Positions 1-35,300 of a stretch of DNA of 64,000 nt are shown here, piece by piece; within the stretch, counting starts at the first letter, position 1; every line of letters begins with the position of its first letter. Origin of the DNA: Cenococcum geophilum (lineage: Eukaryota); NCBI GenBank assembly GCA_050273025.1, contig CP158635.1, positions 2,914,001-2,978,000 of the forward strand. Reading direction: 5' to 3'. The translations under genes and the position numbers were made by a program. The notes beneath the pieces were generated by a model. That model worked only from the letters and a program-made list of their open reading frames with translations, made no database searches and was not told the origin of the DNA.

Positions 1-51
1 GCTATTAGGAATATAGTAGGGACCTAATAGTAGTATATCGCGTGTATATAT

Positions 52-13600: not shown

Positions 13601-16600
13601 TTTTACTGAATTAGGATAGACCCTGGGTCTAAGGATTTTACTATATTCTAGACCTATTACAGGACGTATAAATATAAGGTACTTCCTTTTAGACTAACTA
13701 ACGGACTAGCTACGTACCAGCGGTATATAAATAATGTACTCTTTAACTACCTTAACGACTTCTGTACGGCCTATCTAGATAATATTATAATCTACTTAGA
13801 AAATAAACTGGAATACAAGGAGCACGTCTATAAAGTCCTACAACGGCTCTATAAAGCTGGCCTTTAGGCCGATATTAAGAAGTTGGAATTTAGTATTAAG
13901 CGTATAAAGTACCTAGGTTTTATTATTAGTATAGACGGAATTAAGGCCGACCTAGAGAAAACAACCATAATTAACTAGTGGACGCCCCCATAGACCGTAA
14001 AAGGGGTGTAATTGTTTTTAGGTTTCTGTAACTTCTACTAACGCTTTATTAAGAACTATAGCAGGATCGCCTGGCCTCTTAACCGCCTTACTAGGAAAGA
14101 CCAGCCCTTTTACTTTAACGCTATGTGTATATAGGCCTTTAATAAGCTTAAAAAACGGCTAGTATCGGCCCCCCTACTTGCCCACTTTAACCCAGAATGG
14201 CCCTTAATGCTAGAAACTAATACCTTAGATAGCGTAATAGCCGGTGTTTTTTCCCAGAAGCAACCGGACAGAGAATAGCACCCTGTTATATACTATTTAA
14301 AGACTATAATAAATGCTAAACTGAACTACTATATCTATAATAAAGAAATGCTAGCTATTATCTCTAGCTTTTAGCACTGGCGTATACAGCTAGAGGGGAC
14401 CCCTAAACCTATTAAAGTAGTGTTAGATTATAAGGCCCTAGAATACTTTATAATAACTAAGGCCCTTATAGCCCGGTAGGCACGCTAGACGGATATCCTA
14501 TCTTAGTTTAACTTCTTAATTATATATAGACTAGGCGCTACGAACCGTACGGATGCTCTTACTAGGCGCGAATAAGACTTAAGTGACTATATAGCTGCGA
14601 AGATCTTATTACGGACCTAGACGCTACTATAACTAGAGCACCTTAACCCCCGGATATAGGTAGAACTAAGTATAGACTCCTTGGGCGCTAAGATGTATCC
14701 TATTAACCCTTTAGAACTTAACTTAATTAACGAATTACTGCAGATAAACCGTACGGCCCCTTCTCTATAGGAGTACCGTGAAAAGGCAAAGAACGTTACC
14801 AGCCTATGGTCCCTCAAAAATAGATTACTTAAGCATTAGGAACGGCTGGTAGTGGTAGAGGAATAGAACTTAAGGACTTGGCTTATTACTAAAGCATATA
14901 CCTAGGTCTCTACGGCTTACCCTAGAAAGAATAAGACCCGCAGGATTATTGGCAACCGCTACTACTGGCCTGGAATAGTTATAGATATCGACCGCTATAT
15001 ACGGAACTGCAACAACTGCTATAGGTCTATAATTCTACGAGATAAGACCCTAGGACTATTAAAACCCCTCCTAATACCCGACTGCCCCTAGTAATATATC
15101 TCTATAGACTTTTATAAGCTACCTCTAAACCGTAACGGATATAATATAGTTATAATCCTAGTTAACCGCTTTGGCAAGCGCCCGTTTTTAATTCCCTATT
15201 ATAAGAATATTGATGCTAAAGAGGCAGCCTAACTATATATCTACTACGTCTACTAAATTTACGGACTACTAGATACTATTGTATCTAACTACGGGCCGTA
15301 GTTTATATTAGCCTTTTAGAATAAGTTCACCCGGATCCTAGGCATTAAGCTAAAGCTTTCTACGGCATATCACCCAGACAGACGGTTAAACGGAAATTGT
15401 GAATTAATACTTGGACTAGAGACTCCGGCCTTTCGTTAACTACTTCTAGGATAACTAGGCCGAACTATTGCCCTTAATAGACTACGCCTAAGCGACCCTA
15501 CCCTACGACTCTACCGGATTTGCCCCTATTTAACTAGAAATGGGTTACCTACCCTATATAAGCTTTAACTGGGAAAGACTAAAAGGGCCCTAGACCGTAC
15601 GCGAAAAACTATCTTATGAGGAAGCTTAGCAGTACGCTAAGCGCTTAGAAGAAGCTTAGAAAGTAGCCTGTACGAACCTAGAAAAGGCCTAGAAATTAAT
15701 GGAATAGTAGGCAAATAAGTATAGGCGCGAGCCTGACTTTACTGTAGGCGATATGGTCTGGGTTATAATAAAGAACTAGAAGATAGAACGGCCTAGCCGT
15801 AAGCTGGACTATAAGATGGTAGGACCGTATAAGATTCTTAATAAAGTAGGTAACTTATATAAGGTTAAGCTCCCAGACTTAATTAAAGTCCACCCTATTT
15901 TCTTACCGGATAAGCTACGGAAAGCTATAAATAACCCACTACCTGGACAAAAGAATAAACCTCCCCTGTTAATTTAAGTTAATAACAATAATAAATGGGA
16001 AATTAAAGAAATACTGGCCTATAAACTTATAAAGGGAACGTTAAAGTATTGTATTAGTTGGAAAGGATATAACCTAGACCCCACTTAGTACCCTATATGG
16101 AACTTTATAGGTAGCCCCTATAAGCTTTAGAAGTTTTATAGCTATTACCCTAATAAACCCAGACCACTAAAGTACCTAAATAAGTGGATAGAATGCTGGT
16201 ATAATAAAGACGATAAGCTACTAGAAGAATATAAGGATAAAAACGCCCTAGAAATTTCTTAGTTACGTAAGGTGCTAAGATGTCTAGGAACTTTAACCGG
16301 TGGTTAAAGTTGTCTAATTAGTTAGATTCTCTTGCTAAGACTTTTAGCGGCAAAGCCTAAGGGTAGGCTTTTTTGGAGGGGGGGGTAATGTTACGGCACT
16401 AGTAGAACTTGGCAGAACTATGTACCGGTAAGTTGCCACAGATTGCCGTATATTGCGGTTATGTGACGCAAAGATCGTATATAGCTTCGAGCGGCGCTCC
16501 CCTTCTTCTCCTTTCCTTTCTTTAGCTTTAGATTCTCGTTTATAGACAATCCAATTGTACAGGCTTGCGCGACCCTTTTGCCGTGCTTATATCTCGATTG

Positions 16601-16615
16601 ACTAAGTCGCTAACA
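10639..16615 (+). mobile_element. Ty3/Gypsy chromovirus B nested in the chromodomain of A
   Basis: 227-bp LTRs at 10639-10865 and 16389-16615, TSD GATAG, and a G-rich PPT at about 16375-16385. Confidence 0.95.
10930..16260 (+). pseudogene. gag-pol of element B
   Basis: Gag remnant (AYVFGRTGGDAQ); [13 protein letters not shown]...[11 protein letters not shown] near 13395-13500; YLDNII near 13775; IYNKEMLAII; integrase; chromodomain about 15990-16140. Many RIP stops. Confidence 0.9.
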
Positions 16616-16749
16616 GATAGGCTATACTAAGACTACCTAGAAACTACTAGAGAATTTAAAAAATACTATAAAAAAGGTATAGGAGTATCGGAAGAAATTA
16701 GGTTAGGTAGCAGTAATAAAGAAGGATTACTAAAGAATAAGTTACCTAA

Positions 16750-17338
16750 GGGGGACCTAAGAAGAGCAGTTGCCGAACTACTTAGATCTATTTCCTTCTC
16801 TATTAGAAGAGAATCCGTTCTTTTATTACTAAGTTTATATAAACCTTATTTTATAAGTTTCTACTCCTTAAAATAGACCTTTTTACAAACCTTTTTAAGA
16901 TAGATTAACTAAGCGGACGCAATAAGACGAGATTTAAGAGCCCGTTGCTAAGTATTAGTAGCCTCCCGTTTTATATTATAGAAACGGCATAACTCCGCTA
17001 GAGTAATAGATAGTTTATTATCTAGCCGTATAGCAGCAGATTAAATATAAGACCTTAAGACAAATTAATTAGGGAACTAGATAACTATTAAGAGTAATAA
17101 GTTATATATATTTGGTATTAAAGATAAAGCGAATGTTATAGGACGAGCGAATATTTGCTTTAGTGCACTCTAAGTAAAAAGACGGTTATTGCGAAGATGG
17201 ACTCGCTAACATAATATAGGCTAATCCCTCTTTTAAACAGCAAGAATACGGAGATAGTATAATCTCACTAAGAGATAATATTATAGCTATAGTGCGAACA
17301 TAACGAGCAGTTAAAGATAAAGAAATTGCTTTAGGTAT
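16750..17338 (-). pseudogene. Antisense accessory ORF of element A with a Zn(II)2Cys6-like motif
   Basis: Minus strand reads (M)PKAISLSLTARYVRTIAIILSLSEIILSPYSCCLKEGLAYIMLASPSSQ*PSFYLECTKANIRSSYNIR. Reverting four Tyr codons to Cys (G>A RIP) gives C-x2-C-x6-C-x13-C-x2-C-x8-C. The 3' extent is uncertain. Confidence 0.55.
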
Positions 17339-17446
17339 AATAAGTAAAGATATTAACTAAATTAATTAGACGGATACTATACCTTTAGTAAATAACTTAG
17401 AGATACTAAGGATCTTTAAAGACAAAGATAAAGAGGAGGGAGATAG

Positions 17447-17870
17447 TGTTATGGACGCTTTAAGTATAATATTATAACTACTTAGAGAGGAGTCGGAAGA
17501 AGCTAGTTAGTTAATTTAGGCACGGTCTAGGATGGAGCCGATAGAACTATATAACGAGGAATGGTAACTAAGGTTATATAATGTAATCTATATAATCTAT
17601 ATAATCTATAAGATCTATAATAGAGCAGATAGAGCACACGTTTATTATATATAAGAAGGATTTTATAGGAGTACGGTTGTGTATTTAAGGACCCTTAGTC
17701 CCTACCTAGATAGTTCCTTCCTTATAGTAATTCTTAGAATATAATTAGAGTTAATTTATTAGGCAACCACTCCACTAGTTATTATTACGTTATTAACTTT
17801 AATTTACATTACCTATATACCTAGCCTATTAACGAGCCTATTGTAGTACTTGCTATAAGGTTCCGTTACA
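17447..17870 (+). repeat. 3' LTR of element A
   Basis: TGTTATGG...CCGTTACA followed by TSD CCTAA. Confidence 0.95.
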
Positions 17871-18055
17871 CCTAAACACCTAATAAGGTTAGTTTTTACA
17901 AAAAGGATAATAATATAAAAGGCGATATATAAGAGGATATAGTTTAGGCAGGTGTATAAAAAATATACCTTAACTACCTTAGGGACTTGGAAGGCTATGG
18001 TGAAGCTAAGATAAGTTTACTTAAGCTATAGTCGTTTACAGTCATTGACGAAATA

Positions 18056-18816
18056 TCATGAACTCGCTTAGAGCCGTATGTCGCGCATCGCCCACCCTAT
18101 AACTTTATTAATATAGCTTTATATTTTATAAATAGGGCCTTATTTTATAGCCCTCTATTAAAGCTATAAAACTAGCCCCTATTTATATAATTTAGAGCTA
18201 TATTGGTAGGACTATAAGGGGTAGAGCCGAACGTCGCGTATTATCCACCCTATTAAGACAATACACCCCCTATAACTTTACTAATATAGCTCCAATTTAT
18301 ATAAATAGTAGCTGATTTTATAGCTTTATTCTAGAGCTATAAAATAAGACTTTATTTTTAAAATATAAAGCTATATTAGTAAAGCTATAGGGGGTGTCTT
18401 TCTAGGGCTGCGGAAACTTAAATTGAGGCTTTACGCTAACTAATTTTAGCTACCCCACCCCAAAAACTAATACCCATAATACCCTCTATAGTCCTACTAA
18501 TATAGCTCTAATTTATATAAATAAGGGCTATAAAATAAGGCCCTATTTATAAAATATAAAGCTATATTAGTAAAGTTATAGGGGGTATATTGTCTTAATA
18601 AGGTGGATAATATGCGACGTTCGGCTCTACCCCTTATAGTCCTACTAATATAGCTCTAAATTATATAAATAGGGGCTAGTTTTATAGCTTTAATAGAGGG
18701 CTATAAAATAAGGCCCTATTTATATAATATAAAGCTATATTAGTAAAGTTATAGGGGGTGTATTGTTTTAATAGGGTGGGCGATGCGGCTCTTTCGCGTC
18801 CTAAGCGAGTTCACGA
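18056..18816. mobile_element. Foldback/MITE-like element with long internal inverted and subterminal repeats
   Basis: TA|TCATGAACTCGCTTAG ... CTAAGCGAGTTCACGA|TA; about 18095-18290 is mirrored at about 18560-18780. Confidence 0.8.
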
Positions 18817-18841
18817 TATAGTCGTTTTAATAATATCGGTA

Positions 18842-19325
18842 CTGTCGGTTGCAAAAGATAGGAAACTCGCTAAAGAGCCACGACGCGCGCATTTACCTTA
18901 CCATTAAAACAATATACCCCCTATAGCCCTACTAATATAGCTCCAATTTATATAAATAAAGGCTTATTTTATAGCTTTACTTTAAGGCTATAAAATAAAG
19001 TTTTATTGATATAATTTAAAGCCAAATTGGTAGAGCTATAGGGGGTGCTTTATAAAGGCTGTAAAACTCAGATTAAGGCTCTGCGCTAACTAATTTAGGC
19101 ACTCTCCCCCCAAAAACGAACACCCCCTATAGCTCTACCAATTTAGCTTCAAATTATATCAATAAAACTTTATTTTATAGCCTTAAAGTAGAGCTATAAA
19201 ATAAGCCTTTATTTATATAAATTGGAGCTATATTAGTAGGGCTATAGGGGGTATATTGTTTTGATGGTGGGGTGGATACGCGCGTCGTGGCTCTTAGCGA
19301 GTTTCCTATCTTTTATAACCGACAG
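18842..19325. mobile_element. Tc1/mariner-type MITE (almost wholly palindromic)
   Basis: TA|CTGTCGGTTGCAAAAGATAGGAAACTCGC ... GCGAGTTTCCTATCTTTTATAACCGACAG|TA. The TIR start resembles that of the Tc1 element at 19902. Confidence 0.9.
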
Positions 19326-19327
19326 TA

Positions 19328-19899
19328 CAGGGTCTAGGAGGTTCGGTATCCCCCCCCCCCGTGCGCGCAGCAGCGGTGGCATCTAATTTCGCTTGAGCTT
19401 CGCCTAAACTAGTATGTAGAGCTAGCAGGAAGGGGTATAGTACGTGGTTAGGGCTTAAATCACGGCTCTAAGCTCAATCTGAAGCTATTCTGAACTCCTC
19501 TCCGTCACCAAAAGTCGTGGTATTATAAAGCCTCTTTCTCCTATTAATATAAGCTCTAAACGCGGGCATATATATACATACCGGCGCCGGCTATAAGAAG
19601 GATTTAAATTAATGGCGTACTGCTAGTCACCCAATTTAGAGCTATATTAAGGAAGGCAACGGGGTAAAACACCAAGATCTAGAGGTGATATTACAACTTG
19701 GTAGGGGAGAGGAGTTTAGAATAGCTTCAAAATCGAGCTCAGAGCTCCGAATTCGAGGTGGGCCGTGGTTCAAGCCCTAACCACGTACTACACCCCTTCC
19801 TGCTAGCTCTACATACTAGTTTAGGCGAAGCTCAAGCGAAATTAGATGCCACCGCTGCTGCGCGCACGGGGGGGGGGACACCGAACCTCCCGGACCCTA
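19328..19899. mobile_element. MITE with about 140-bp or longer TIRs, TA-flanked
   Basis: CAGGGTCTAGGAGGTTCGGT...CACGGC is mirrored by GCCGTG...ACCGAACCTCCCGGACCCTA. Confidence 0.9.
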
Positions 19900-20017
19900 T
19901 ATTGTCGCTTGCAAAAGATCGGTAAAAATCGCCAAGCTAAAAGAGCCGTATTGCACCCCACCAAAATTCGTATAAGGGGTAATTCTTTTAATTTCAACTA
20001 CCACAATTAAGGTTAAT

Positions 20018-20976
20018 ATGGGTCGCCGCCTTCCTGATGAAGTTATTCATAGAATTAGGATTCGCATTAAAGCCAATCAGGATATAGCGACTATTGCGGC
20101 TGCAGTAAAGGTGGCCAAGAAGACGATTTACAAGATACAATTAAACCTTAATATTTGGGGCGAACTGTACGCGCCTCCTACTATAGTCTAAGGTCGACTA
20201 AGAGCTCTGCTACCTTACTAAGAAATGGTAATATATACAGTTATAGTGTTAAGCTTTTTACTTACTGTTTATGCAGCGCCTTTTTAACTTCCTTAAAGAT
20301 TAGCTAATAGCGTATTTAGATAAGATATAGACTTTCCTATTTAACGAATTTAATATTTAAGTCTCTACTGTAACTGTCTGCCGTACTCTTAAGAGAGCTT
20401 CCTAGTTATAAAAGGCGGTTACAGCTTAGGCGGCGTAAAGGAGCGCTCCCCTCTATAATGCCTAGATTAGTATATAAAAGAGCTAGGTAGTAGAGCAGCT
20501 TATATTTTTTAACAAGTTAGCAGTAAATAAAAGGACTAGTAATAGGAAGTACGGCTAGTTACTAGAAGGGACTATATATAGTATAGCACGCGTACTTAAA
20601 AGGTTAGAGAGGTAGAGTATTCTACTAGCGTTAGCAGTTAATAGATACCTTAGCTACCTTATCTTTTAAGGTTTATTACGTCTATAATATTTAAAGCCTT
20701 TATAGAGGAGTAGGTACTACCTTATTATATACTATATCTAGGGCCACAATTAGTCCTTATTCTTAACAACGCGGCAATTTATAAATTAATACGGCTTTAA
20801 GAGCTTTATAAGCAACACGGCGTCTTACTAAAATTCCTACTACTATACTTACCAGATTATAATCCTATTAAGGCTATATTTAATAACGTTAAGGCTTAGA
20901 TTTAAAGGAACTAGCGGCTAGTTAAGGACTTTAAGAGCTTTAAGAGCTTCTTACATTTTACTGTTAGTTAAGTATA
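20018..20976 (+). pseudogene. Tc1/IS630-family DDE transposase
   Basis: MGRRLPDEVIHRIRIRIKANQDIATIAAAVKV (HTH); intron about 20228-20277; LIFFNK (DE), VLILNNAAIYK (DNA..H), LLLYLPDYNPIK (PYSPDYNPIE). Confidence 0.85.
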
Positions 20977-23900
20977 TATCACGGAACCCTACCGCAGGGG
21001 CCTCTATAGGAGAGCCCCGTGCTCTCGCGTATACCTCGCGTACAGCTTATATCAGCTACGCGTAGGTATATCACCTCCTTACGCCCTTAACCCTTACGAT
21101 CGATCGCGCAACGTCTTGTAGACTCCTCGAATACATACGCTTTGTAGCCACTGCCCCCGTCCCATAACATTACGTTACGCCTTTTTTACCACTAACGCTT
21201 AGCCTACGACCAATTCTACGTCTTTGTAATACTACAGGCGCTGCCAAAAGCAGCATATCTACGAATTACCTCACTTTATACTTCTAAGGAACCTATAATA
21301 GTAAAACAATATCCCTTACTAGCTATTATATTAAACCTAAAGAATAATCTAATACCTATACCTAACCTACAACGCTAATTAATCCCAGGAGAATTTAATT
21401 TATTAGCCCTAGCCTTAACCCCTAAGGAGACGGACACTAATAATATCTTATCTTTTATTAACTATATAACTACGAACAAGTAAACGGAAGGGCTACTACC
21501 TATTAAAATCAAAATACGAGACGCCGAGACGTTTATAAAAATGGTAGCATAAGACCCTAATAAATACTACCGCCTTCTATAGAACTATTACCTAAAGCTT
21601 ATACGAGCCAAGATACATACTGCTTAAGATTACGATATTATCCAAGACCTATAAGCTTGTAAGGCGCTCGCCGATAATACATATTAAGAAACTAAAGACG
21701 ACCTTTGCGTGTCTGAACGCGACGTCTAATAGTTAAAAAAGGCTAAGATTGTACTAATTGCTACGGTTACTAAAAAAGAAGGTATAATTAAATACCTATA
21801 ATCTTAGCTTAATAAGCATATTCGTAACAACGCTAGATACCTCTCTACTATATATAACGCCACCTAAGTCTCTACGCCCCTAGTAACTTTACCTACTTAA
21901 CGCTTAACGGAGGGCTAGCGCTAAGCAGCTTTACCTAATAAAAACCCCTACTAAAGTAGCGATAATAAAAGCTATAATAATCGGACCTAAACTGCTACCG
22001 TAGGGTCTAATATACGCTACCCTAATCCCCTAGTCTTTTAGGGAGACCGTAAGGAATATAGCTACTAAAAGATGCAAATCCATAAGAAACTAACTTAGAG
22101 TGCCTACCTTTTTCCTACAGAAGACACTAAAATCGGCTATATTATTGGGCGAATAAAGGGTACACCATTTAATAGACTCTTCGCCCGATGGGAGACTAGT
22201 GGCCCCTAAAAGTAGTAGTCCTACTAAGAAGTCCTTAACAATCTCGACCTAATATACTGTAACTATAACCTACTGGCCACCAACTAAGCTAAACTACGTG
22301 CCCTAAAGATAAGCCCTACTAAATTATTCGATAAATTCTATATTAAATTCTAAGAATACACCGAAGCCCTCGCCTAAGACGATACTAAAAACCAGAAGGA
22401 CCTCCTTAAAAAAGTTACTTATCGCCTTAGTTACGCAGCCGCCAGCCACAACTATAACAATATTTATAATATGGTAGCAGCTCTATAGAAGATTAAACGA
22501 CAACTAAATTAGATTACTACTACTAACCCTTACCTAAAGACCTCCCTATAGAAGCCCCCCGGGCCTACTAAACCTATATATATTAAGCCACTAACGCCTA
22601 CTACCTTAAGTACTACCGGAACTAATATTAATTTCTCTATATTAACCTTCTCATAGAAACTCCTAGATGGAGAGCGCGAGCTACTCTAGAAACTAGGACG
22701 CTGCTATAAATGCCGTTAAGAAGGCTGTTATCGCAATAACCTAAACTACCTAATGGCTAGGTTTAGTAGCTACCGCCTAATACTTAACCTAATACCCCAA
22801 ACACTAAATACGTTGCTACGCGCCACTACTATATAAGATAAAGACGTAGTAATAGCGGTAGAGTCGGATACGGAAACGGAAAACGCTAAGTCCTAGCCCT
22901 AAGTTATAGGTTGGGATGCCCTAATAACGGAGGGATCTATATATCGGCTTGCTTAATAGATAACTCTATAAAAATAAATAGACGGAAATAGATAGTTTTA
23001 CCTATAATAGGAACTACTACTAAAAAATAATATAAAAGCCGTTCTATAATTAATTACGGAGCTACTAATAAATTTATAGATACCTAATTCGTGCGCACTT
23101 ATAACCTACCTACCTTACCCCTTACTAAAGCCCGCGCCCTATAACTCGCTAACGGTAATTATACCGCATAGAAGATTACCTATATGGTATAACTCTACCT
23201 AGATATAAATAGGCACTAGGAAGAACTCTGGGCCTATATAACACTACTTACTAACTACCCTATTATCCTTAGAATAAACTAGCTCGAATAATATAACCCC
23301 GCTATTAACTAGAAGAAAAAAGAAGTAACCTTTAACTCTAAATACTGTAGAGAGACTTGCCTAGGGCATAGCCTAGCCACCTCTATTTACTCCCTAGGAT
23401 ATCAACCTAAGGAACCCCTTATTACCCCACCTATAACTAACTGCTACTATATAAGTGCCCCGGCCTTCTACTATATAGCATATAAGAAAGGCTAGACCGT
23501 TACTATAGCTTCCTAATTACAACTATATAAGCTTAATAAAGAATAGGACTACGTCCTCTATAGCAATAGGATAGACATAGTTGACCTTTTAGAAGACAAC
23601 GCCCCTACGGAACTCTACAGACTTTTACCTTTAGACTTTAAGAAGTTTATAAAGCTTAAAAAAGGACTTACCAACGAAGAACTCCGCAAGCTCCTCCTTA
23701 AGAGGTACTATAACTTTACCGATATGTGCTTATAAAAGAGTGTAGATACACTCCCCCTATATTAACCTAATAACTATACTATTAATATTAAATAAGGAAA
23801 AATGCTACCTTATAAGAGACCCTACCTAATATTAAAAGACGAGCTTCTAGTTATAAAAAAGTATATTAACAAGCACCTTAATAAAGGATTTATTCGTCCT

Positions 23901-26900
23901 AGCATATTACCAGCAGCCGCCCCTATCCTTCTCGCTAAGAAGCTAGGAGGAGGTATCTAATTCTATATTAACTATAGAGGACTTAACGCTATTACGATTA
24001 AAAACTAATACCTAGTACCGCTTATATATAAGACCCTTAAGCGGCTTAGTTAAGCTAAAATCTATACTAAGCTTGATATTATTGCCGCCTTTAACTATCT
24101 CTAAATACGGGAAGGTAACAAATAGAAAACCGTATTCGCATCGCGCTTCGGCCAATTTAAATATACCGTTATGCCCTTTAGGGTATATAACGGCCTAGGT
24201 ACCTTTTAAAGCTACATTAATAACGCCTTACGGGACTACCTTAACGACTTCTACTCTGCGTACCTGGACGACATACTTATTTATAGCGATAACTCCTCTA
24301 AGTATACTAAACACGTTTAAAAGGTTCTACAGCGCCTTAGGGACGTAGGACTTTATATTAATTTAAAGAAATGCGAATTCTTAGTTATAGAAGTAAAATA
24401 CCTTAAACTAATTATTACTACTAAGGGTGTCTATATAGACCCCAAGAAGGTATATATAATTACTAAATAGTAAGCCCCTAACTGCATTAAGGACGTATAA
24501 GCCTTTCTTAGTTTCGCCAACTTCTATCAGAAATTCATATATAACTTCTTAGGCGTAGTAGCACTACTTATAGCAATAATACGAACGAAGGGCCTTTCTA
24601 TAAAAGGAAGAAAAACGCACCTACGCTTTACCTAGACGCCTAAATGCGAGAAGGCGTTCTAAGACCTTAAAAATGCCTTTACTAAAGCATTTATCTTAGC
24701 TTACTTTACACCAGGATAATAACTCTACCTTAAAACTAACTCCTTAGACCACGTTAATGTAGGCGTCCTTTCTTAGATAGGTAATAACGGTCTCCTTTAC
24801 CCAGTCGCATTTTACTCGTCTAAGCTTATACTATAAGAGTGTAACTATAAGATCTATAATAAAGAACTCCTTATAATTATATAAGCGTTTAAAGAATTCC
24901 AACTAGAACTCTCCTTAGTAGAGCCTAACTAGCCAACTAAAGTCCTTACGGACTATTATAATCTTAAGTACTTTATAACTATAAAGTAGCTAAACTAACG
25001 CCAAGCACGTTAGAACGAGTTCCTCTCTAGTTTTAACTTTAAAATTATATATAGACTAGGAGTATAAGGTACTAAACCTAATAGCCTAATACGCCGCTCG
25101 TAAGACCTTCCTTAGTTTAAAAATAACCCCTGTAATTAGTTCCAATAACAGACAATCCTAAAAGCACGAAATTTGGCCTTAGGTATACTACCTACAATAG
25201 AGCTAACTATACCCTAGCTTTATACTATAGAACTAAAGTTACCTTCTAAAATTAATAAGCTTATTATTACGGTATATAACGCCTCTATTAACCTATTACT
25301 ATATTAACTTATTACCGCAAAGACCGCTAGCGCCCATACGCTGCCTACTAACCTCTAAAGCTTAGGCCAAATTAATATAGTAGCCTTAGAAGTAAAAGAG
25401 AACAGGCTCTATTATAGAGGCCGCCTATTTATCCCTAACTTAGAAAATCTATAACAGCAACTAATCTAAATAGCCTACGACCTCCGATTAAGCGGCCATC
25501 TAGGTAGAAAAGGAACCTATAAGCTTCTTAGCCGATACTACTTCTGGCCAAAAATAATAGACTTAGTTAAACGCTTTATAGGCGCCTGCTATAGTTATAA
25601 GCGCGCTAAGGCCTTTAATATAAAGTACTAAGGACTACTATACCCTCTACTAGTACCTATATAACGATGGGTAGATATCGCTATAGATTTTATTGTTGAC
25701 CTATTACCCTGTAAATGACACGGCCGTACCTATAAGAACATCCTTATAATAATATACCGACTTATAAAAGAGCGCCACTACGTCCCAACTAAAGGCGTAG
25801 CCGTTAGCGACGTTACTAACGCCTTCCGCGAAGTCTACTAACTATATAGGCTACCTAACTTAATTACGTCCGACTGAGGTATATAATTTAACTCTAATAT
25901 ATAGAGACGAATCTACTAACGCCTTAGCATCTCTGTTAAGATGTCTATATCCTTCTACTATAAAACTACTGGGTAACTAGAAAACGCTAATACTAGTATA
26001 AAAGCGTACCTATGACAGGTAGTCGCCTATAATTAAGATGACTGGGTAGATTACCTCCTACTAGGTAAATTCGCAGCGAATAACTACGTCTTAACCACTA
26101 CAGGACTTACCCCGTTCTTCGTGAATAAGGGTTATTACCCCTAATCCGGCATAGAGCCACCAGAACCTATTAATAAGAAACTGCTATATAGAAAACGCTT
26201 TAAGATGCTACTTACCGACCAGTATATAGACTATATAAAAAATCTACTCAACTACTGCAAGGGAGAAATGGCCTAGGCTTAAGCAAAGTAGGCCTACTTC
26301 GCTAACCGTTATAAAACGCTACCACTGGAGATGCGTGTTGGCGACTAGGTATAGCTAGATATACGTAATATCTCTATGCAGAGGCCTATAAAGTCACTCG
26401 ATTATAAGAACCTTAGCCCCTATTTAATTAAACAAGTTATTAATAGGGGAGCCGTATATAAGCTAGAACTCCTACTTACCCTAGCTACCCGCGGGATATA
26501 GCCCATATTTTACCTATAGCTACTATACCTCTATTAGCCTAACCCCTTACCAGGGCAGATATAGCTTAAACCCCTACTAGTACTAATCCGAGATAAGAAT
26601 AAAGACAAAAACTATAAGAAGTGGACCGTTAAACGAATTATTAACTCTAAATACTTTAGTAAAGGCAGAGGACGATGGCTCTACTACAGAGCTATATATA
26701 CAGGATTCGACATAGATTAGCCAGAATGGCAACTATAGGAAGACTTTAAAAATGCAAAGGATCTAATTAGCGACTTTTACTACGCGAACCTATAGAAACT
26801 AGGCCTAAGTAGAGACTTTATACCTAATCCTCTATAGGAGCCCTTATAGAGTTAAACCGTTATATATTACCACGTAAGGGTAAATTGCCGTTAGATTGCC

Positions 26901-27337
26901 GTTAGATTGCGGTAAAGTGCGATTACGTAACTGGAATATCGTTAAGATGTCTAGGAACTTTAACCGGCGGTTAAAGTTATCTAATTAGTCGGATTCTTAG
27001 ATGCCAAGCCCTATTATATAACGTTGTTTTAAGCCTTTAGCAATACCCCCCTTTTTCTTCTTTTCTATACCTTAAGTGTCTCTTCTATATATATATAGTA
27101 ACCATAACGTCGCCAGAGCTCCGCCTCTATAAGAGGGGGGGTAGTATTACGGAACCCTACCGCAGGGGCCTCTATAGGAGAGCCCTGTGCTCTCGCGTAT
27201 ACCTCGCGTACAGCTTATATCAGCTACGCGTAGGTATATCACCTCCTTACGCCCTCGACCCTTACGATTGATCGCGCAACGTCTTGTAGACTCCTCGAAT
27301 ACATACGCTTTGTAGCCACTACCCCCGTCCCATAACA
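20977..27337 (+). mobile_element. Ty3/Gypsy chromovirus C nested in the Tc1 transposase
   Basis: 193-bp LTRs at 20977-21169 and 27145-27337, TSD GTATA, PPT AAGAGGGGGGG; RT KGFIRPS near 23885; AYLDDILIYS near 24260; integrase and chromodomain to about 26830. Confidence 0.95.
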
Positions 27338-27968
27338 GTATATCCCTTTATATAGTAACCGTTTCTTGCACTTTTTGTATATGCACGCCTATAAGCCTAT
27401 CTAGAGGCTTTATACCGTATATAGCTTAGCGTTAAAGCCTCTGGTTAGTGCGGTTACTCGGCGTTAGGGGTGCTGGCGCCTTATTAACACTTAGTAAACA
27501 GCAGCGAAGTGGCTAGGAAGCCTATATAATATTTGGTGTAGTTAATTAAAAAGCTTTAATATTATCGCCGTCTATTTAATCCTTAAATTATTAGCAAAAT
27601 GTTGTCCTTATGCAGCCTGGCAGTAATTTAGTGGACTTTAATAGAAGATTTTCCTATATAATCAGCAGCTGGTTAATAGAAGAAGGGTAGAAATCTACAG
27701 ACATGGCGTTATATATTACGACTTCTTGCTTAACTTCCTCAAATATATATTGGTGTTTTTAGTGGTAGCCTTCTATAATATTTTGTCGGCATCGCAATAT
27801 CGACGTATTTTAGTGGGGATTGCTAATAAAATCGCGCTAGCTAGGGTGCCTATAGCATTCTAACCCAAACAAAAGCGCCAAAGGCGCCTAATACGAAAAG
27901 TGACTTTTGCCGCACGAAGGGATGGTATATACGCAAGAGCCCACTTCTAAGAGGTAGGATATATTATA

Positions 27969-28470
27969 TAGTAATATACACGACCAGCTTCTACCCCCCC
28001 CCTTTAGCAAGTGCTCCAAAATTTTAAATTCGGTACGCGCATCCAATCTCGCCAGTAATTGTAGCGAACGGTTGTGGCTACACGTAAGGACCATTTTGGT
28101 TGCCATAGAGAATTATTCTGGTTAGCCGGGAGAATCAAATTCAGAACTTGCTTGACGACGCTCCCCTAACGTATGTTTCCTTAACGTACGCTTCCTCTTT
28201 TGCTTATACCTCTGCCTCTGCCAAAACGCGAATACAAAGCTGTCTCTGCAATTGCCGATAAAATTTGGCAATATCGTATGGGTGGAAACCTACGATATTG
28301 ACGAAGATTACGACACTGTAGAACTAAAGTTCTTACAGCCAAGCATGCGGCTTCGCTACAATTACTATATACAGTTGGTGGCAACCAAGCGAGATTAGAT
28401 ACGCGTACCGAATTTAAAAATTTAGAGCCCTTGCCAAAGGGGGGGTGGAAGCTGGTCGTGCACATCACTA
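27969..28470. mobile_element. MITE with about 85-bp TIRs starting TAGTG (hAT-like termini; TSD not recognisable)
   Basis: TAGTAATATACACGACCAGCTTCTACCCCCC... is mirrored by ...GGGGGGTGGAAGCTGGTCGTGCACATCACTA. Confidence 0.75.
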
Positions 28471-28489
28471 TAGGGTAATAGATAAATAC

Positions 28490-29985
28490 TATCTTAATCG
28501 CTTAAACTTTAAGATTAGAGGCCTAATTCTAACTAGCGTACTAATCTTAAAGCTATATCTCTCCTATTAATCTAACGTTATCCCTTTACCTAGCTTCTCT
28601 AACTTTAGCGAGTTAATATTCCATTCTTCCTCTACCAGCTTATCCTTAATTGGCTCTAAAGTAGCCCTCTACCTCTTACTACTAAACTATAGCTTATTAA
28701 CTAGCCAGTTAAAGAACTAGCTAAGTAGCTTAACTAGATCTGTTTCCAACTAAACAGGGCTTAAGTTTTAGGGTGCTTTATTATTTAAAGATGCAGTAGA
28801 ATATTGATAAAGGTAAGGATTTTGGGCCATAGAATTGGCCTAGTTTATAACTAATATTACTACTAGCTGCTTAATATATTCTAATATAGGATCTTCCTTC
28901 TCTACCGCCGGCTCCTTCTAGATCTTCTTTCTCCCCTCTCTGCTACTAGCCAAGATCATTATAATATTTTGCAACGGCTGCTTAACTGTAGAGGCGCTAG
29001 AGAGAAGCTCTCTATTCTACCGCTAGAAGTCTACTATATTTACAGGATAATAGTTAATTGCAATATTGGGCGAGTTAGGCAACGGCTTATTCTGCTAGCA
29101 GGTCTTACTTTTATTATAGCAATAGATATTTATATAAGGCCACTAATCTGCAATTACTGGCATTATATTGCCAGAAGCCTCCTTAGCAGCAATTTCGTTA
29201 GGTAAGTTAGTAATTTAAACTTATATAGCTATCCTTCTGCCTATAGGCCTCTCGATAACTTACTGACTTAAAGTTATAACAGGAGGAGCCTAAGACTCTA
29301 GTTCCTTCTCCTTAACTAAATATAAGGTGAAGTTTAAGGAGAGAGACTTAGATGGCTAGTACTTATGCTATTTCTTAATTATTATAAGAGCTTAATATAG
29401 ATCCGCAGGTAACCGAATATCTTAAGGGCAGCAGTCAGCTTGCCGCGCTTTCTCGTAGGAGGCAATAGCTTAGAGGTAAGTAATCTTAAACTTCCATGGT
29501 AGTAGATTTAGTACAGTCTCGTTCTGCCATTACTCTAGCTTAAAGTAGTATATATTTTTAGTATTAAATACTACTAACTTTATGCTAGGAAGAGATACCT
29601 TTTTACTACCTATAACTGCCTTTTAAACACTTGTAAAGCGTGCCGGCGGCGGCGGCGGCGGCGGCGGCAATAAGCCTATATCTTTATCTTCCACCTCTAT
29701 AGGCTCCTTAATATTCTTATCCTCGTCCTTATTAACCTCATCTACAGACGTAGGCTCTGCAGGCGTTGCTGGCGACGGCGGCAACAGCGACGGCGACGGC
29801 GACGGCGACGGTACTGGTATTGTCTTCTACCTCTTCTTTGCCGCCTTCGCCTTCCTCTTTATCTTCTTCTTAGGCGGCTATAAAATAGTAGGGGTAGGTA
29901 CAGATTAAGCCTGCTTTCGTTTAGAAGGCTTTAGAGGACGGCCTAATAATTAAGTAGGTAGCTGCTGCTGTTAGGACAATATAAG
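28490..29985 (-). pseudogene. Second (convergent) gene inside the Tc1 element; Pro-rich N-terminus and Cys/His motif; unknown family
   Basis: Minus-strand frames give PVPSPSPSLLPPSP, PPPPPPPA, WPYINIYCYNKSKTC*QN...NYYP, and FFNWLVNK...IKDKLVEEEWNINSLK...YSFKISTLVRIR. Confidence 0.55.
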
Positions 29986-30181
29986 ATACAACACCAAGAT
30001 TTCTATATAATTGGCTTAACTAGGTAACGCGCTAGCTTCAATATTTGGGCACTTACAGTAGGCAATTAACGCAGTATAGGTGGATAAAATCAAAAGAATT
30101 GCCCCTTATACGAATTTTGGTGGGGTGCGATGCGGCTCTTTCGGCTTAGCGATTTTTACCGATCTTTTACAAGCGACAGTA

Positions 30182-31961
30182 AGGGTACGCCCGCTTAGCC
30201 GCACGGCCCGCCCACTCGCACACACGAACACCAAAATATCACCAATTTTAACAATTAATTACTCCACCAAAATAGGTGATATTTTGGCGCTATAAAATAT
30301 ACTGGCTGATTTATATCTTTAAAAACATTTTAATATATCTAAGATAGCCTAAAAACACAATGTTAAGTAGTTAAAGTTGTCAAAACACTGGCGTGGCATT
30401 TAGGCGTTAATAAAAGAGTATTATAAATCTTAAGACTATATAACCAACAAATAGGTTTAAAGCTTTATAAATTATATAAATCTATTTCTAAATTAAAGGA
30501 TTCCTCCTATACCATTAATAGTTAAATATTTTATTAAGAATATTACTAAAATTAATGTTAAAAAGAACTATATAAAAGTTATAATATTTAGTAAAATTAG
30601 TTTTAAAATTATAAACCTAAACAGTAGCCTACTCTTTTTATTATTTTAAAATATAAGTAAACTAATAATAAAATTGATTATAAATGGTTTTTTATAATTT
30701 TTAACAACTATATTAAATATAAAGCTAGCTTAAATTAAAAATAAGGGCTTTTAACCTATAATAGCTATAACTTTTATTTAAATATAAAAGTCCTTAACTA
30801 ATATTATATAAATAAATTTTTTATAGCCATATTTTCTCTCTATAGTATATATAGACTTTAGTCTTTTAATATTTTAATACTTTTTACTACTAGTAAAGTA
30901 TTATAGCTATAAATTGAATTATTATATAATATATAGCTAATAGTTTATTTTATAGGTAAACAATATTTTTAAAAGGTTTTTAGGCTATATAGAATTCAGC
31001 CTTTATATTAAATAATATTATTAATAAATAAAAAGATTAAAATTTATTTATTTAATTTTAATATTATTTTAGGCTGTTTTTTAAAGTATATATATAAGGA
31101 GTCTTTATTATTTAAAAGCCTATTAAAAATTATTTTATTACTTTAGCCTAATAATAGGATTAGTATATAAAACTTATTAAATACTATAATAATAAAAATA
31201 ATAATAAAAAAGAACTTTAGCTATATTTAACTTTTTAAAATATATAAATTAAGAATAAACTTTTTATAAAAAAAAATAATATACTTAAATTAGCTTTTTA
31301 TAATAAAAATAATAAATAAATAAAAAATATAGGCCTTTTTAATAAGTTATATAATATTAGAGAGCGTAATTTTTAATTTTTAAACTTTATTAAAGTGTAG
31401 TAAGTAAAAGACTTAAAAACTAAGTATAAATAAACTAAAATAGACAAATAATATGCCATTAGAAAGAGGAATATTTAATAAATAATATATTAAAAAATTG
31501 GCTCTATATAGACGCAGAAAAAAAAGTTATTTAATTTATTACTTAAGTATATTAAGCTGTAGAAAAAGTAGTAAAGAAAGCTAAATAATAATAAGTAAAA
31601 GAGGATTATAAAATAGTCTAGTAGCTTATTAAGAGGCTAAAGTAGCTAAAAGGATACTTAGGAAAAAGAATAATAAGGTGTTTAATAAGGAAGTTTAATT
31701 AATTAAGATAGTAGAGGTAAAAGAGGCTGCTACTATACCTCCCCCTTAGGGTACACAAAACAAGGGAAATAAGTCTACTATAGAGGTTTAAGGATTATAA
31801 GCTTTAACTAGCTAGATTCGCAGCTCCTTAAAGCCTTATATACTAGAATTATATAAGTGGTAGGTTTTGTGTGTCGCGGGTAGCCTCAATTTTGCTAAAG
31901 TGGTGATGCTTGATTTGGCCTGTGCGACTGGGCGGGCTGTGCGGCTAAGCGGGCCAACCCT
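30182..31961 (+). mobile_element. Fot1/pogo-type DNA transposon, extremely RIP-degraded
   Basis: 41-bp TIRs AGGGTACGCCCGCTTAGCCGCACGGCCCGCCC and GGGCGGGCTGTGCGGCTAAGCGGGCCAACCCT with TA flanks; 1.78 kb; remnant of the HSTHRLQPLD motif near 30840-30875. Confidence 0.8.
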
Positions 31962-31963
31962 TA

Positions 31964-32183
31964 ACTCGCTTAGAGCCGAACGTCACGCGTTACCCACCCT
32001 CTCAAAACTACATACCCCCTATAACTTTACCAATATACCTTTATATTTTATAGATAGGGCCTTATTTTATAGCCCTTTACTAGGCCTATAAAAGAAGCCC
32101 TTATTTATATAAACTAGAGCTATATTAGTAGGACTATTGGGGGTATTATAAGGTACTAGTTTTTGGGGCGGGGTAGCTAAAAT
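31964..32183. mobile_element. Partial copy of the 18056-18816 foldback family (its TIR begins at 18836, before the transposon train)
   Basis: ACTCGCTTAGAGCCG...CCCACCC...CCCCCTATAACTTTACCAATAT matches 18062 onward. Confidence 0.75.
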
Positions 32184-32185
32184 TA

Positions 32186-32300
32186 ACGTGGGGGATCAGC
32201 TTGTGCACGCGACCGGCTCGTGCACGGTTTTCCCCACCAAAATCTGGCAAAATACACCTTTTTACACCACCTATAATTTAATAACTATAACAGCTATTAA
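32186..32300 (+). mobile_element. Isolated Fot1-like left end
   Basis: TA|ACGTGGGGGATCAGC...CCACCAAAAT. ACGT terminus after TA; no partner end found. Confidence 0.45.
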
Positions 32301-32349
32301 TAACATGCGGAACGTTAGGTACCCTACGTAAACTTTGACCCGAGTTTAA

Positions 32350-35300
32350 AAGCTTTAACTTAGAGCCTTATATATAGAGTTTAATTAATATATTAATATA
32401 TATATAGATATAAGGTTTTCCAGGGGGAGACCCCCTGGACCCCCCCTCTGTAGAGCTTTTACTTAATTTAAAAGTAGTAGTAAGGCTAAGGCGCCTTAGT
32501 TACTACTAAGTAATATTATCTTACTAAGAGGATCTATTACAGTAACAGAGTTTAATTAATATCTATATATATATATAAGGCTTTCTAGGGGGAGACTCCC
32601 TAGACTTCCCCTTATAGAGCTTTTAGAAGTAGTAGTAAAGCTAAGGCGCCTTAGTTACTGCTAGGTAGTATTATCTTATTAAAAGGATCTACTATAGTAA
32701 CTAAGGTGCCCTACTTAAGTTAGGCTTAATTTAGAAGTAATATATATATACCTCCATCGTATTATATTGCGGGGGCTATGTAACGTGGCCCGCCTCCACG
32801 TCGCCATACGGCCAAAAAGACTGAGAGTGCTTGCGAACTTGTCGTAAGCGTGGCGGGATCCAATATATGTACTCTTACAGGCTACTTTATAATAAGGGGT
32901 AAGCTTTAGATAGAGGCTTATATAGAGCTTTAATAGAGGCTTATATAGAGTAGTAATAGAGGCTTATATAGAGCTTTAGTAGAGGCTTATATAGAGCTTT
33001 ATATAGAGCTACGTGCAGAGCTATATACAGAGCTACGTTTAGAGCTACGTGTAGGTGTGTAGGCGTGTAGACGTATAGACGTGCAGACGTTTATACTGGC
33101 GATTAATTATAGAGACGCCTGTAGAGATAGTTGTATGGGCAATTATATAATAATAATAATTCATTGCTTAATATCCGATTTGGATCCCTATTAGGCCTAC
33201 GCGGACTACTCCTTATATACATATAGGGAGAAAACTCTATTAGGCAATTATATAGACGTTTAATTAATCGTTTATACGGGCGTTTATATAGGCAATTAAT
33301 TAATTAATTAATTATATGGACGTTTATAGAGCTATACGTAGAGCCATTTATATAGGCGTTTAATTGATTAACTGTATGGGTATTTAATTAATTAATTATA
33401 TAAGAGTTCGTATAGGCACTTGTATAGGCGTTTGTATAGGCGATTATATAGACATTTATAGAGCCGTTTATAGAGCCTTCCTAGTATATTAGTAGAGCTT
33501 TAGAGCTCTATATTAAGCTTTAAGTAGAGCTTTAAGTAGAGCTTTAAGCTTAAGGGGGAGATCCCCTTAGACCCTCCCTATACACTACGTGCTATATATA
33601 CTATATAGGCAGAGGTCTTATAGAGGCTTTAGTAAAGCTTCTATAGAGCTTTATATAGAGCTTCTATAGAGCTATATATAGGTATACAGACGTTTATACG
33701 GGCAATTAATTGTAGAGATATTTATAGAGGCGATTGTATAGGCAATTATATAGACGTTTAATTATTTATTTATATAGGCGTTCGTATAGGCGTTTGTATA
33801 GGTAATCGTGCAGACGTTTATAGAGCCGTTTGTAGAGCCGTTTATAGAGCCGTTTGTAAAGACAATTATATAGCGATTAATTATATAGACGTTTATATGG
33901 CCAATTGTAGAACCTTCCTAGTATATTAGTACTGCGTATTAGTAGAGCTCTAAGTAGAACTTTAAGCTTAAGGGGGAGACTTCCTTAGACCCCCCCTGCG
34001 TACTATATGCTCTATTTACTATATAGGCAGAGCTCTTATAGAGGCTTTAATAGAGCTTTTAATAGAGATTTATATGGAGCTTTATACGGAGCTTTTATAG
34101 AGCTTAGTATAGAGCTTTAATTAACCTAAATTTTTAATTTAAAGCCTTATAATATAGAGTTTAATTAGTATATATATAGACATAAGGTTTTTTTTAAAGA
34201 AAACCCTCCCTAAACCCCCCCTCTATATATTAGGAGCAGTAGTAAGGTTATTTAATTAAAAAGATTTATTATAATAACTAAAGCATGATATTTAAATTAG
34301 GCTTAATTTAAAGTAATATATAAAATTTTATATATATAAGTAATATTTCTACCTTTAAAAAAAACTTAAGCTTAAGGGGGAGACCCCCTTAGATACCCCC
34401 TACGCACTATATGCTTTATTTACTACGTGGGCAAAGCTCTTATAGAGGTTTTAGTAGAGCGTTTAGTAGAGCGTTTGGTAGAGCTTTATATGGAGGTTTA
34501 TATGGAGCTTTTGTAGAGCTTTTGCAGAGCTCTATATAGAGCCCGGTAGAGCTTCGTATAGAACTTTATATAGAGCTTTAGTAGAGCTTTATGCAGAGCT
34601 TTGGTAGAACTACGTATAGAGCTTCAGTAGAGCTTCGTGTAGAGCTTTAGTAGAGCTTTATATAGAGCTTTAGTAGAGCTTTATGCAGAGCCTTATATAG
34701 AGCCATATATAGGCGTTTACATAGGCGATTAACTGCAGAGACGCTTATAGAGACAATTGTATAGATAATTGCATAGACGTTTAATTAATCGTTTATATGG
34801 GTGTTCGTATAGGTAATTAATTGATTAATTGATTGATTATATAGGCGTTTATACGGGTAATCGTGTAGATATTTATAGAGCTATTTATAAAGCTATTCGT
34901 GTAGATAATTATAGAGCCTTCCTAGTATATTAGTGCTGCGCGTTAGTAGAGCTCTAGAGCTCCGTATTAAGCTTTAAGTAGGGTTTTAAGTAGATCTTTA
35001 AGCTCAAGGGGGAGACCCCCTTAGACCCCCCCTGCGTACTACGTGCTCTATTTACCGCGTGGGCACAGCTCTTATAGAGGCTTTAGTAGAGTGTTTAGTA
35101 AAGCTTTTATAAAGCTTTTATAGAGCTTTTATAGAGCTTTTTGTAGAGCTTTAGTAGAGCTTTTTGTAGAGCTTTGGTAGAGCTTTGGTAGAGCTTTAGT
35201 AGAGCTTCGTGTAGAGCCTTATACGGAGCCATATACAGGCGTTTACACGAGCGATTCGTATAGGCGATTGATCGTTTGTAGAGACGTTTATATGGACGAT

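What the first reader, a model, noticed from the sequence alone, without database searches (positions are those of the whole stretch)
18836..31978. Train of four Tc1/mariner-type elements stacked at one TA inside another element's TIR
Seen: MITE 18842-19325, MITE 19328-19899, Tc1 19902-30179 and pogo 30182-31961 abut one another with exactly one TA at each junction (18840, 19326, 19900, 30180, 31962). Removing the 13.1-kb train gives AATATCGG-TA-ACTCGCTTAGAGCCG, which matches the foldback TIR at 18052 (AATATCATGAACTCGCTTAGAGCCG). Inference: four different families hit the same TA or its duplicates in DNA that is full of other TAs. This implies targeting to pre-existing transposon ends, a transposon landing pad.
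Basis: partly seen in the sequence, partly recalled or inferred. Interest (0 to 1): 0.75.

Follow-up and report, generated by a model that had tools for sequence, protein, structure and literature searches.

The report
Transposon pile-up inside another transposon's end
Four dead cut-and-paste transposons sit end to end, each pair sharing one TA, inside the end-repeat of a fifth one in a fungal repeat desert, and a few related loci suggest that such transposon ends attract new insertions.

Summary
Four TIR elements (18842-19325, 19328-19899, 19902-30179, 30182-31961) abut with exactly one TA at 18840, 19326, 19900, 30180 and 31962.

With the train removed, the flanks align to an intact 458-bp foldback MITE in metagenome locus L022. 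The shared TA falls on nt 22-23 of that element's TIR.

Corrections:
- "Tc1" is a Tc1-like element (DDE_3). It is 10.3 kb long only because it carries a nested gypsy LTR element and a MITE.
- "pogo" is unproven: no Pfam hit at E<=10.
- MITE1, the Tc1-like element and the host MITE have related TIRs, so they are not fully separate families.

The host MITE itself seems to sit at a TA inside the neighbouring foldback's TIR.

Eight related termini came from metagenome contigs. Two lie at the same two TIR-internal TAs, one lies in another MITE's TIR, and one lies 7 nt from another terminus. For comparison, 63 of 9,790 window TA sites pass the anchored test. None of the eight shares a TA.

Targeting of transposon ends is therefore supported but not proven. 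No genome was held, and strain contigs were too short to show empty alleles. MITE multimers, parallel insertion sites and IS30 are close precedents.

The parts
18027..18038 (+). Left flank of foldback F1: TA, then 8 nt that repeat the start of F2's terminus (compare 18819-18826), then TA. Possibly the stump of a further F-type terminus. Unexplained.
   Evidence: Read directly. It did not pass the anchored test.
18039..18816 (+). F1, a composite foldback of the F-type (Tc1-like MITE) class. The left terminus starts CAGTC after the TA at 18037-38. The inner part, 18221-18630, is an F-type body lacking about 30 nt at both ends. The right TIR is cut at its nt 16-17 TA (18817-18).
   Evidence: L022 650-1049 matches 18630-18221 at 84.7%; flank of 18819 = inner part of the TIR from nt 18; 15 identical and 3 transitions of 18.
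18819..18839 (+). F2 left terminus, nt 1-21 of an F-type TIR. It is degraded by transitions and preceded by the TA at 18817-18.
   Evidence: 13 identical and 5 transitions of 21, ungapped, against the intact L022 element. It is the only one of 1,539 TA-21nt-TA frames to pass.
18840..18841 (.). TA number 1: nt 22-23 of the F2 TIR and the left target duplication of MITE1.
18842..19325 (+). MITE1, a 484-bp foldback MITE. Its terminus is that of a Tc1-like subfamily seen with a transposase start in L004 and L099.
   Evidence: 97% over 34 nt to the L004 terminus; hairpin, z -32.9.
19326..19327 (.). TA number 2, shared by MITE1 and MITE2.
19328..19899 (+). MITE2, 572 bp, with 138-nt TIRs starting CAGGGTC. 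Single copy in the window.
   Evidence: (I7).
19900..19901 (.). TA number 3, shared by MITE2 and the Tc1-like element.
19902..30179 (+). Tc1-like element, RIP-dead. The transposase remnant lies at about 20019-20960 on the + strand. The 3' part (27343-30179) holds a further degraded reading frame on the - strand.
   Evidence: DDE_3 at E 2.4e-6, 27.9 bits, just under the 28.6 cut-off. The relative in L053 scores 63.1 bits. TIR.
20977..27337 (+). Nested Ty3/gypsy LTR retrotransposon. LTRs at 20977-21169 and 27145-27337; 5-bp duplication GTATA.
   Evidence: RVT_1, RNase H, integrase zinc domain; LTRs differ by 6 transitions in 193 nt.
27964..28475 (+). Nested 512-bp TA-flanked MITE inside the Tc1-like element, not at a TIR end.
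   Evidence: (I25).
30180..30181 (.). TA number 4, shared by the Tc1-like element and X4.
30182..31961 (.).
31962..31963 (.). TA number 5, the right copy of the F2 TIR nt 22-23 TA.
31964..32299 (+). Rest of F2, from TIR nt 24 to about nt 344 of 458. The right end is missing.
   Evidence: (I3).

Best explanation
The locus is a stack of separate cut-and-paste insertions by TA-duplicating (Tc1/mariner-type) elements in a RIP-mutated fungal repeat region.

Proposed history:
- A foldback MITE (F2) landed at a TA 16-17 nt inside the right TIR of a neighbouring foldback (F1).
- A first element then landed at the TA 22-23 nt inside F2's left TIR.
- Three more landed on one of the two TA copies that each insertion leaves behind. 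The result is a train with one TA at every joint.

Most likely reason: the transposition complexes of these elements prefer TA steps at or just inside the ends of resident foldback elements. I commit to a structural cause. The whole element is a hairpin-forming palindrome, so its base (the termini and their flanking TA) is easily distorted DNA. An alternative cause is transposase sitting on the resident end.

If every newcomer hit the TA next to F2's intact 21-nt terminus, that half-site survives each hit. The oldest element would then lie on the right.

Shown: the anatomy, the empty-site match, and recurrence of TIR-internal hits at other loci.
Inferred: the order of events and the cause of the preference.
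For: Exact ends and single TAs.

The empty site equals nt 22-23 of an intact F-type TIR found independently in L022.

F2's left flank is the inner part of F1's right TIR from nt 18 on.

Independent events in metagenome loci:
- L027: a MITE at nt 22-23 of a Tc1-type TIR.
- L051: a Tc1-type element at nt 16-17 of an F-type TIR.
- L004: a Tc1-type element in the TIR of the 27964-type MITE (0 of 200 shuffles).
- L053: two termini 7 nt apart.
- L022: the F-type MITE follows 18 nt of a Tc1-type terminus.

Null expectation: 63 of 9,790 window TA sites pass the anchored TIR test. Two of 8 outside termini pass it (P about 1e-3). Four of 8 count if the two found by other criteria are included.

MITE1 and the F-type element fold as whole-length hairpins with the TAs at the stem base.

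Arm transversions rise from left to right: 0 of 199, 0 of 137, 3 of 103, 5 of 45. This fits oldest on the right.
Against: - Only 8 outside termini were usable, out of 118 loci fetched; the other 110 were chance matches. They come from unnamed metagenome contigs assumed to be the same or a related fungus.
- Four of the 8 have flanks I could not place.
- None of the 8 shares a TA with a neighbour, so exact TA re-use is seen at this locus only.
- The null rate comes from one window and from today's TA count, which RIP has inflated. With a five-fold higher rate, P for 2 of 8 is only 0.026.
- TIRs of autonomous elements need not be identical when they insert, and RIP acts by length, so the age order is weak.
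- Elements with three unrelated terminus types hit the site. This argues against tethering by one transposase and leaves the structural cause untested.
Confidence: 0.6

Rival explanations
1. Chance stacking. In a gene-free repeat region where insertions are not removed, random TA choice happened to hit the same TA copies.
For: The window is almost all repeats and very TA-rich, with 9,816 TA sites. TE-in-TE nesting is common there: the gypsy element and the 512-bp MITE lie inside the Tc1-like element away from its ends.
Against: Each further hit on one of two specific TAs among thousands has odds of about 1 in several thousand, and three are needed. Independent loci also show hits at the same TIR-internal TAs.
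Confidence: 0.07
2. Protein-guided end targeting. A transposase bound to the resident end holds the incoming complex, so its active site faces the TA at or near that end. This resembles IS30, which inserts next to its own inverted repeats.
For: The host TIR, MITE1 and the Tc1-like element share one terminus class. In 4 of the 5 placed outside events the target TIR is of that same class. The IS30 precedent is in PMC9333248 (abstract read).
Against: MITE2 and X4 have unrelated termini yet used the same site. The outside scan could only find inserts of one class, so it cannot test class matching. No binding data exist.
Confidence: 0.2
3. Composite origin. Part of the train formed elsewhere and arrived as one unit. 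For example, 18842-30179 could have been moved by the matching outer ends of MITE1 and the Tc1-like element. Fewer hits would then have occurred here.
For: The MITE1 left end and the Tc1-like right end agree in 20 of 24 nt plus 1 transition. They could serve as a pair.
Against: This only moves the abutting insertions to another place. No second copy of any joint was seen in the window or in the 8 loci.
Confidence: 0.1
4. Assembly artefact. The joints are mis-joins of repeats.
For: No contig shown bridges a joint. Logan contigs were 120-580 nt long.
Against: Mis-joins would not produce complete TIRs, single TAs and an empty site that matches an independent intact element. Run X5 has zero-difference contigs over several parts of the stretch (table 8).
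Confidence: 0.03

Closest known systems
MITE multimers and nested MITEs of rice, maize and mosquitoes. Source: Jiang and Wessler 2001, as summarised in the review PMC5172404 (passages read). The original paper is not held.
   Same: Small TA- or TAA-targeting TIR elements lie next to or inside one another far more often than expected. Independent insertion events were inferred.
   Different: Here the host is a fungus, and the hits fall within the first 16-23 nt of the TIR or on the duplicated TA itself. Four elements of three terminus types are lined up with no spare base. Whether the plant cases share single TAs I could not check.
Parallel insertion sites of Stowaway MITEs in carrot (PMC6881990, sections 9 and 17 passages)
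   Same: Different Stowaway families use exactly the same TA. Families with more similar TIRs do so more often, which the authors explain by a shared transposase.
   Different: In carrot the elements are alternatives at one site in different plants. Here they are stacked in one genome, and the site lies in another element's TIR.
IS30 of E. coli (PMC9333248, abstract read)
   Same: A transposable element with two kinds of target: hot-spot sequences and the ends of resident copies.
   Different: IS30 is bacterial, uses copy-out-paste-in through a joined-ends intermediate, and belongs to a different family. No such behaviour is on record for eukaryotic Tc1/mariner elements in the papers my searches listed.
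   Same: A Crypton array a few bases inside the end of a small mariner-type MITE, with a second insertion at the same base. It was read as a favoured landing site.
   Different: Another transposon class (tyrosine recombinase) and a sequence-mimicry explanation. Not tested here.

Membership tests
IS630-Tc1-mariner superfamily (all four train members) | TA target-site duplication | tested here: met
   A TA lies on both sides of each element, at 18840, 19326, 19900, 30180 and 31962.
IS630-Tc1-mariner superfamily (all four train members) | Terminal inverted repeats reaching the element ends | tested here: met
   arm identity is 84-95% over 45-200 nt.
IS630-Tc1-mariner superfamily (element 19902-30179) | DDE/D transposase of the Tc1 type (Pfam DDE_3) with an N-terminal helix-turn-helix | tested here: inconclusive
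   With stops read as X: DDE_3 at E 2.4e-6, 27.9 bits against a cut-off of 28.6; HTH_7 at E 0.0028. A relative in L053, which matches the window element at 71% over 258 nt, scores 63.1 bits.
pogo/Fot1 group (element 30182-31961) | pogo-type DDE transposase with a CENP-B-like DNA-binding domain | tested here: inconclusive
   No Pfam family in any of six frames at E<=10. The element has 23% G+C, so a ruined gene cannot be excluded. The name rests on length and TA only.
MITE (18842-19325 and 19328-19899) | Short, non-coding, TIR- and duplication-flanked, with related autonomous elements | tested here: met
   The elements are 484 and 572 bp. The MITE1 terminus is 97% identical over 34 nt to the terminus of a transposase-bearing element in L004. 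No partner was found for MITE2.
End-targeted insertion of the IS30 kind | Transposase-dependent insertion next to a resident inverted repeat | not testable with these tools
   Needs a transposition assay. Sequence shows only where the insertions lie.
RIP-mutated fungal repeat DNA | TpA/ApT high and (CpA+TpG)/(ApC+GpT) low. The usual cut-offs of about 0.89 and 1.03 are recalled, not from a call. | tested here: met
   Window values are 1.67 and 0.54. Differences between TIR arms and between the LTRs are almost all transitions.

The most novel reading that the evidence does not exclude
The first 21 nt of this Tc1-like foldback TIR, plus the TA that follows, act as a self-renewing landing pad. Any TA-targeting transposon is drawn to that TA, and the pad survives each hit. 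Elements therefore pile up in order of arrival. This would be end-directed target choice in eukaryotic Tc1/mariner elements, which are usually treated as near-random at TA.
Probability: 0.25. Interest if true: 0.75.

Novelty: new variant of a known kind. Interest (0 to 1): 0.5.

Why it matters
Tc1/mariner elements are widely used as gene-delivery tools. They are thought to pick TA sites almost at random, with only a mild taste for bendable DNA.

A short DNA segment that draws several unrelated TA-targeting elements to one dinucleotide would be a natural example of site-directed integration in this superfamily. It would also help explain how repeat deserts in fungal genomes build up by transposons landing on transposons rather than on genes.

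The claim can be tested directly: put the 458-bp foldback, or only its end, on a target plasmid in a transposition assay.

If the full-genome census shows no excess, the locus is only a striking curiosity.

Tried and rejected

- **Other strains:** 24 runs were listed, and four (X5, X7, X8, X11) were laid on 16000-33500 at 90% likeness.
  - Contigs were 120-580 nt long and mostly paralogues with 8-10% differences.
  - No listed contig bridged a joint and no joint skipped an element cleanly.
  - Nothing can be said about empty or partly filled alleles.
  - The low cover of the X4 interior in X7, X8 and X11 is not evidence of absence.
  - The joints listed there (for example 18586 to 32013) come from paralogous foldbacks.

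- **Records behind the metagenome loci:** The genome search could not read them, so only about 1.2 kb per locus was available.

- **Earlier findings by sequence:** MITE2, the Tc1 5' part, and F1 plus MITE1 gave nothing. The same was true by place and by words.

- **De novo scan of the window for all TA-flanked TIR pairs:** it gave 1,365 pairs, swamped by foldbacks and 12-bp satellites, and was not usable as a census.

- **Unanchored local alignment of flanks with shuffles:** too blunt for 15-21-nt matches (L027 21 of 200, L051 19 of 200). It was replaced by the anchored test.

- **Target motif:** I looked for a shared motif around the target TAs by eye and found none.

- **F1 inserted into F2's terminus at nt 9-10:** this would explain the repeated 12 nt at 18027 and 18817. 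I ranked it below the reverse nesting, because it needs F1's right end to lack its last 6-8 nt.

- **Mos1 paper PMC2642840 (passages):** it deals with auto-integration, not with resident ends.
Full report
**What is there**

The window is AT-rich fungal repeat DNA with the marks of RIP. TpA/ApT is 1.67 and (CpA+TpG)/(ApC+GpT) is 0.54. Differences between repeat arms are almost all transitions. No whole genome is held for it.

**The four elements**

At the coordinates given, four elements with true terminal inverted repeats abut one another.

- MITE1 (18842-19325) is a 484-bp whole-length foldback.
- MITE2 (19328-19899) has 138-nt TIRs.
- The long element (19902-30179) has 103-nt TIRs.
- The fourth element (30182-31961, here X4) has about 45-nt TIRs.

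Every TIR runs to the base next to a TA. The three inner joints hold exactly one TA and nothing else. Two terminal bases (19899, 19902) carry transitions of the RIP type.

**What the members are**

The long element is Tc1-like. With stops read as X, its first 1.1 kb gives DDE_3 at E 2.4e-6 (27.9 bits, cut-off 28.6) and a weak HTH_7. A better-kept relative in locus L053 gives DDE_3 at 63.1 bits.

It is 10.3 kb long only because of two nested inserts.
- A Ty3/gypsy LTR element lies at 20977-27337. It has RVT_1, RNase H and the integrase zinc domain. Its 193-nt LTRs differ by 6 transitions, and its duplication is GTATA.
- A 512-bp TA-flanked MITE lies at 27964-28475.

About 3.4 kb remain, with a degraded second frame on the minus strand. 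This recalls the two-gene Tc1-like family noted elsewhere in this genome (e1-7826315, an unchecked note).

X4 has 23% G+C and no Pfam hit in six frames at E<=10. The name "pogo" is a guess from length and TA.

MITE1's terminus is 97% identical over 34 nt to that of a transposase-bearing Tc1-like element in L004. It differs little from the terminus of the long element. The train therefore holds three terminus classes, not four unrelated families.

**The host site**

A scan of metagenome contigs with the shared 18-nt terminus gave 118 loci. Only 8 are true relatives, with a TA in front and TIR likeness running on: L004, L012, L022, L027, L033, L051, L053 and L099. The other 110 are chance matches.

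L022 holds an intact 458-bp foldback MITE with perfect 53-nt TIRs, flanked by TA. I call this the F-type.

The window sequence with the train left out aligns to it at 83%: 186 identical, 22 transitions, 16 transversions. The A of the TA falls on nt 23.

The 21 nt at 18819-18839 match F-type nt 1-21 without gaps (13 identical, 5 transitions). They are preceded by a TA. They are the only one of 1,539 TA-21nt-TA frames in the window to pass that test.

The train therefore lies in the TA at nt 22-23 of the left TIR of an F-type element (F2). F2's body runs on from 31964 to about 32299, and its right end is lost.

**One level further out**

The 18 nt to the left of the TA at 18817-18 are the inner part of the right TIR of the neighbouring foldback F1, from TIR nt 18 on (15 identical, 3 transitions). 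F2 itself therefore seems to sit in the TA at nt 16-17 of F1's TIR.

A rival reading is that F1 sits at nt 9-10 of F2's terminus. It would explain a 12-nt repeat (18027-18038 and 18817-18829), but it needs a truncated F1 end. I rank it second and leave the repeat unexplained.

F1 is itself a composite. Its middle (18221-18630) is an F-type body lacking about 30 nt at both ends.

**Is there targeting?**

Within the window, 5 of 6 clear TA-element insertions lie in or at a TIR end: F2, the first train member, and three re-uses of the TA. One does not: the 512-bp MITE.

Outside the window, the 8 termini give these flanks.
- L027: a MITE at nt 22-23 of a Tc1-type TIR, the position homologous to the train's.
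- L051: a Tc1-type element at nt 16-17 of an F-type TIR, the position of F2 in F1.
- L004: a Tc1-type element about 30 nt inside the long TIR of the 27964-type MITE (0 of 200 shuffles).
- L053: two termini 7 nt apart (TA-3 nt-TA).
- L012, L022, L033 and L099: flanks I could not place.

In L022 the F-type MITE follows 18 nt of a Tc1-type terminus.

As a null, I treated every TA of the window as a mock insertion site under the same anchored test. Sixty-three of 9,790 pass (0.64%), and 41 of these lie in annotated TIR ends. Two of 8 outside termini pass that test (P about 1e-3). With L004 and L053, which were found by other criteria, 4 of 8 count.

This supports a taste for TIR ends, with several limits.
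- The sample is small and comes from unnamed contigs.
- RIP has inflated today's TA count.
- With a five-fold higher null rate, P for 2 of 8 is 0.026.
- None of the 8 shares a TA with a neighbour. The exact re-use of the duplicated TA is so far unique to this locus.

**Mechanism**

Shown: the joints and the empty site are those of successive TA-duplicating insertions.

Inferred, step 1: the ends of these elements are favoured targets. MITE1 and the F-type element fold as whole-length hairpins with the flanking TAs at the stem base (z -33 and -20). Elements of three unrelated terminus types used the site. I therefore favour a structural cause, namely distortable DNA at the base of a palindrome, over tethering by one transposase.

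Inferred, step 2: if each newcomer hit the TA next to F2's intact 21-nt terminus, that half-site survives every hit, and the oldest member lies on the right. Transversions between arms fit this order weakly: 0 of 199, 0 of 137, 3 of 103 and 5 of 45 from left to right.

**Known relatives of the phenomenon**

- MITE multimers and nested MITEs in plants and mosquitoes (review PMC5172404, passages; the original paper is not held).
- Parallel insertion sites of carrot Stowaways, where families with similar TIRs re-use the same TA (PMC6881990, passages).
- IS30, which inserts next to its own inverted repeats (PMC9333248, abstract).

My searches listed no paper describing TA-sharing trains or TIR-end targeting for eukaryotic Tc1/mariner elements. 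That is a statement about those searches only.

**What stays open**

- The genome-wide test.
- Alleles in other strains: the contigs laid were too short.
- Whether the train or part of it exists elsewhere as a unit.
- The family of X4.
- The cause of the preference.

Noticed in passing
window 20977-27337: A Ty3/gypsy LTR retrotransposon nested in the Tc1-like transposase region. It has a 5-bp duplication GTATA, and its LTRs differ by 6 transitions in 193 nt.
   Followed up: partly
window 27343-30179, minus strand: The 3' part of the Tc1-like element is 2.8 kb long. It holds a degraded proline- and lysine-rich frame facing the transposase gene, with no Pfam hit. This fits the two-gene Tc1-like family noted elsewhere in this genome (e1-7826315).
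   Followed up: partly
window 18221-18630 within 18039-18816: Foldback F1 is a composite. An F-type MITE body lacking about 30 nt at both ends, cut at the TIR's nt 31-32 TA on each side, sits between two further TIR-plus-hairpin modules. The symmetry suggests palindrome formation or arm-to-arm conversion rather than a simple insertion.
   Followed up: partly
window 18027-18038 and 18817-18829: A 12-13-nt direct repeat (TA, 8-9 nt, TA) lies on both sides of F1. It may be the stump of a third F-type terminus or a trace of the order of nesting. Unexplained.
   Followed up: partly
L022 619-1080: An intact 458-bp foldback MITE with perfect 53-nt TIRs and TA flanks, so probably recently mobile in the organism behind that contig.
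   Followed up: partly
L053 858-1109, minus strand: An open C-terminal part of a Tc1-like transposase (DDE_3, 63 bits). It ends about 330 nt before a terminus that lies 7 nt from the terminus of a second element.
   Followed up: partly
window 18842 and 30179: The MITE1 left end and the Tc1-like right end form a matching TIR pair (20 of 24 nt plus 1 transition). The 11.3-kb block between them could in principle have moved as one macro-transposon.
   Followed up: no
window 1-1700 and about 33250-34850: Long arrays of 12-bp units of the TATAGAGCTTTA kind, in both orientations. The same kind of array flanks the MITE in L027.
   Followed up: no
window 29640-29830: Runs of GGC and GACGGC triplets inside the degraded second frame of the Tc1-like element.
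   Followed up: no
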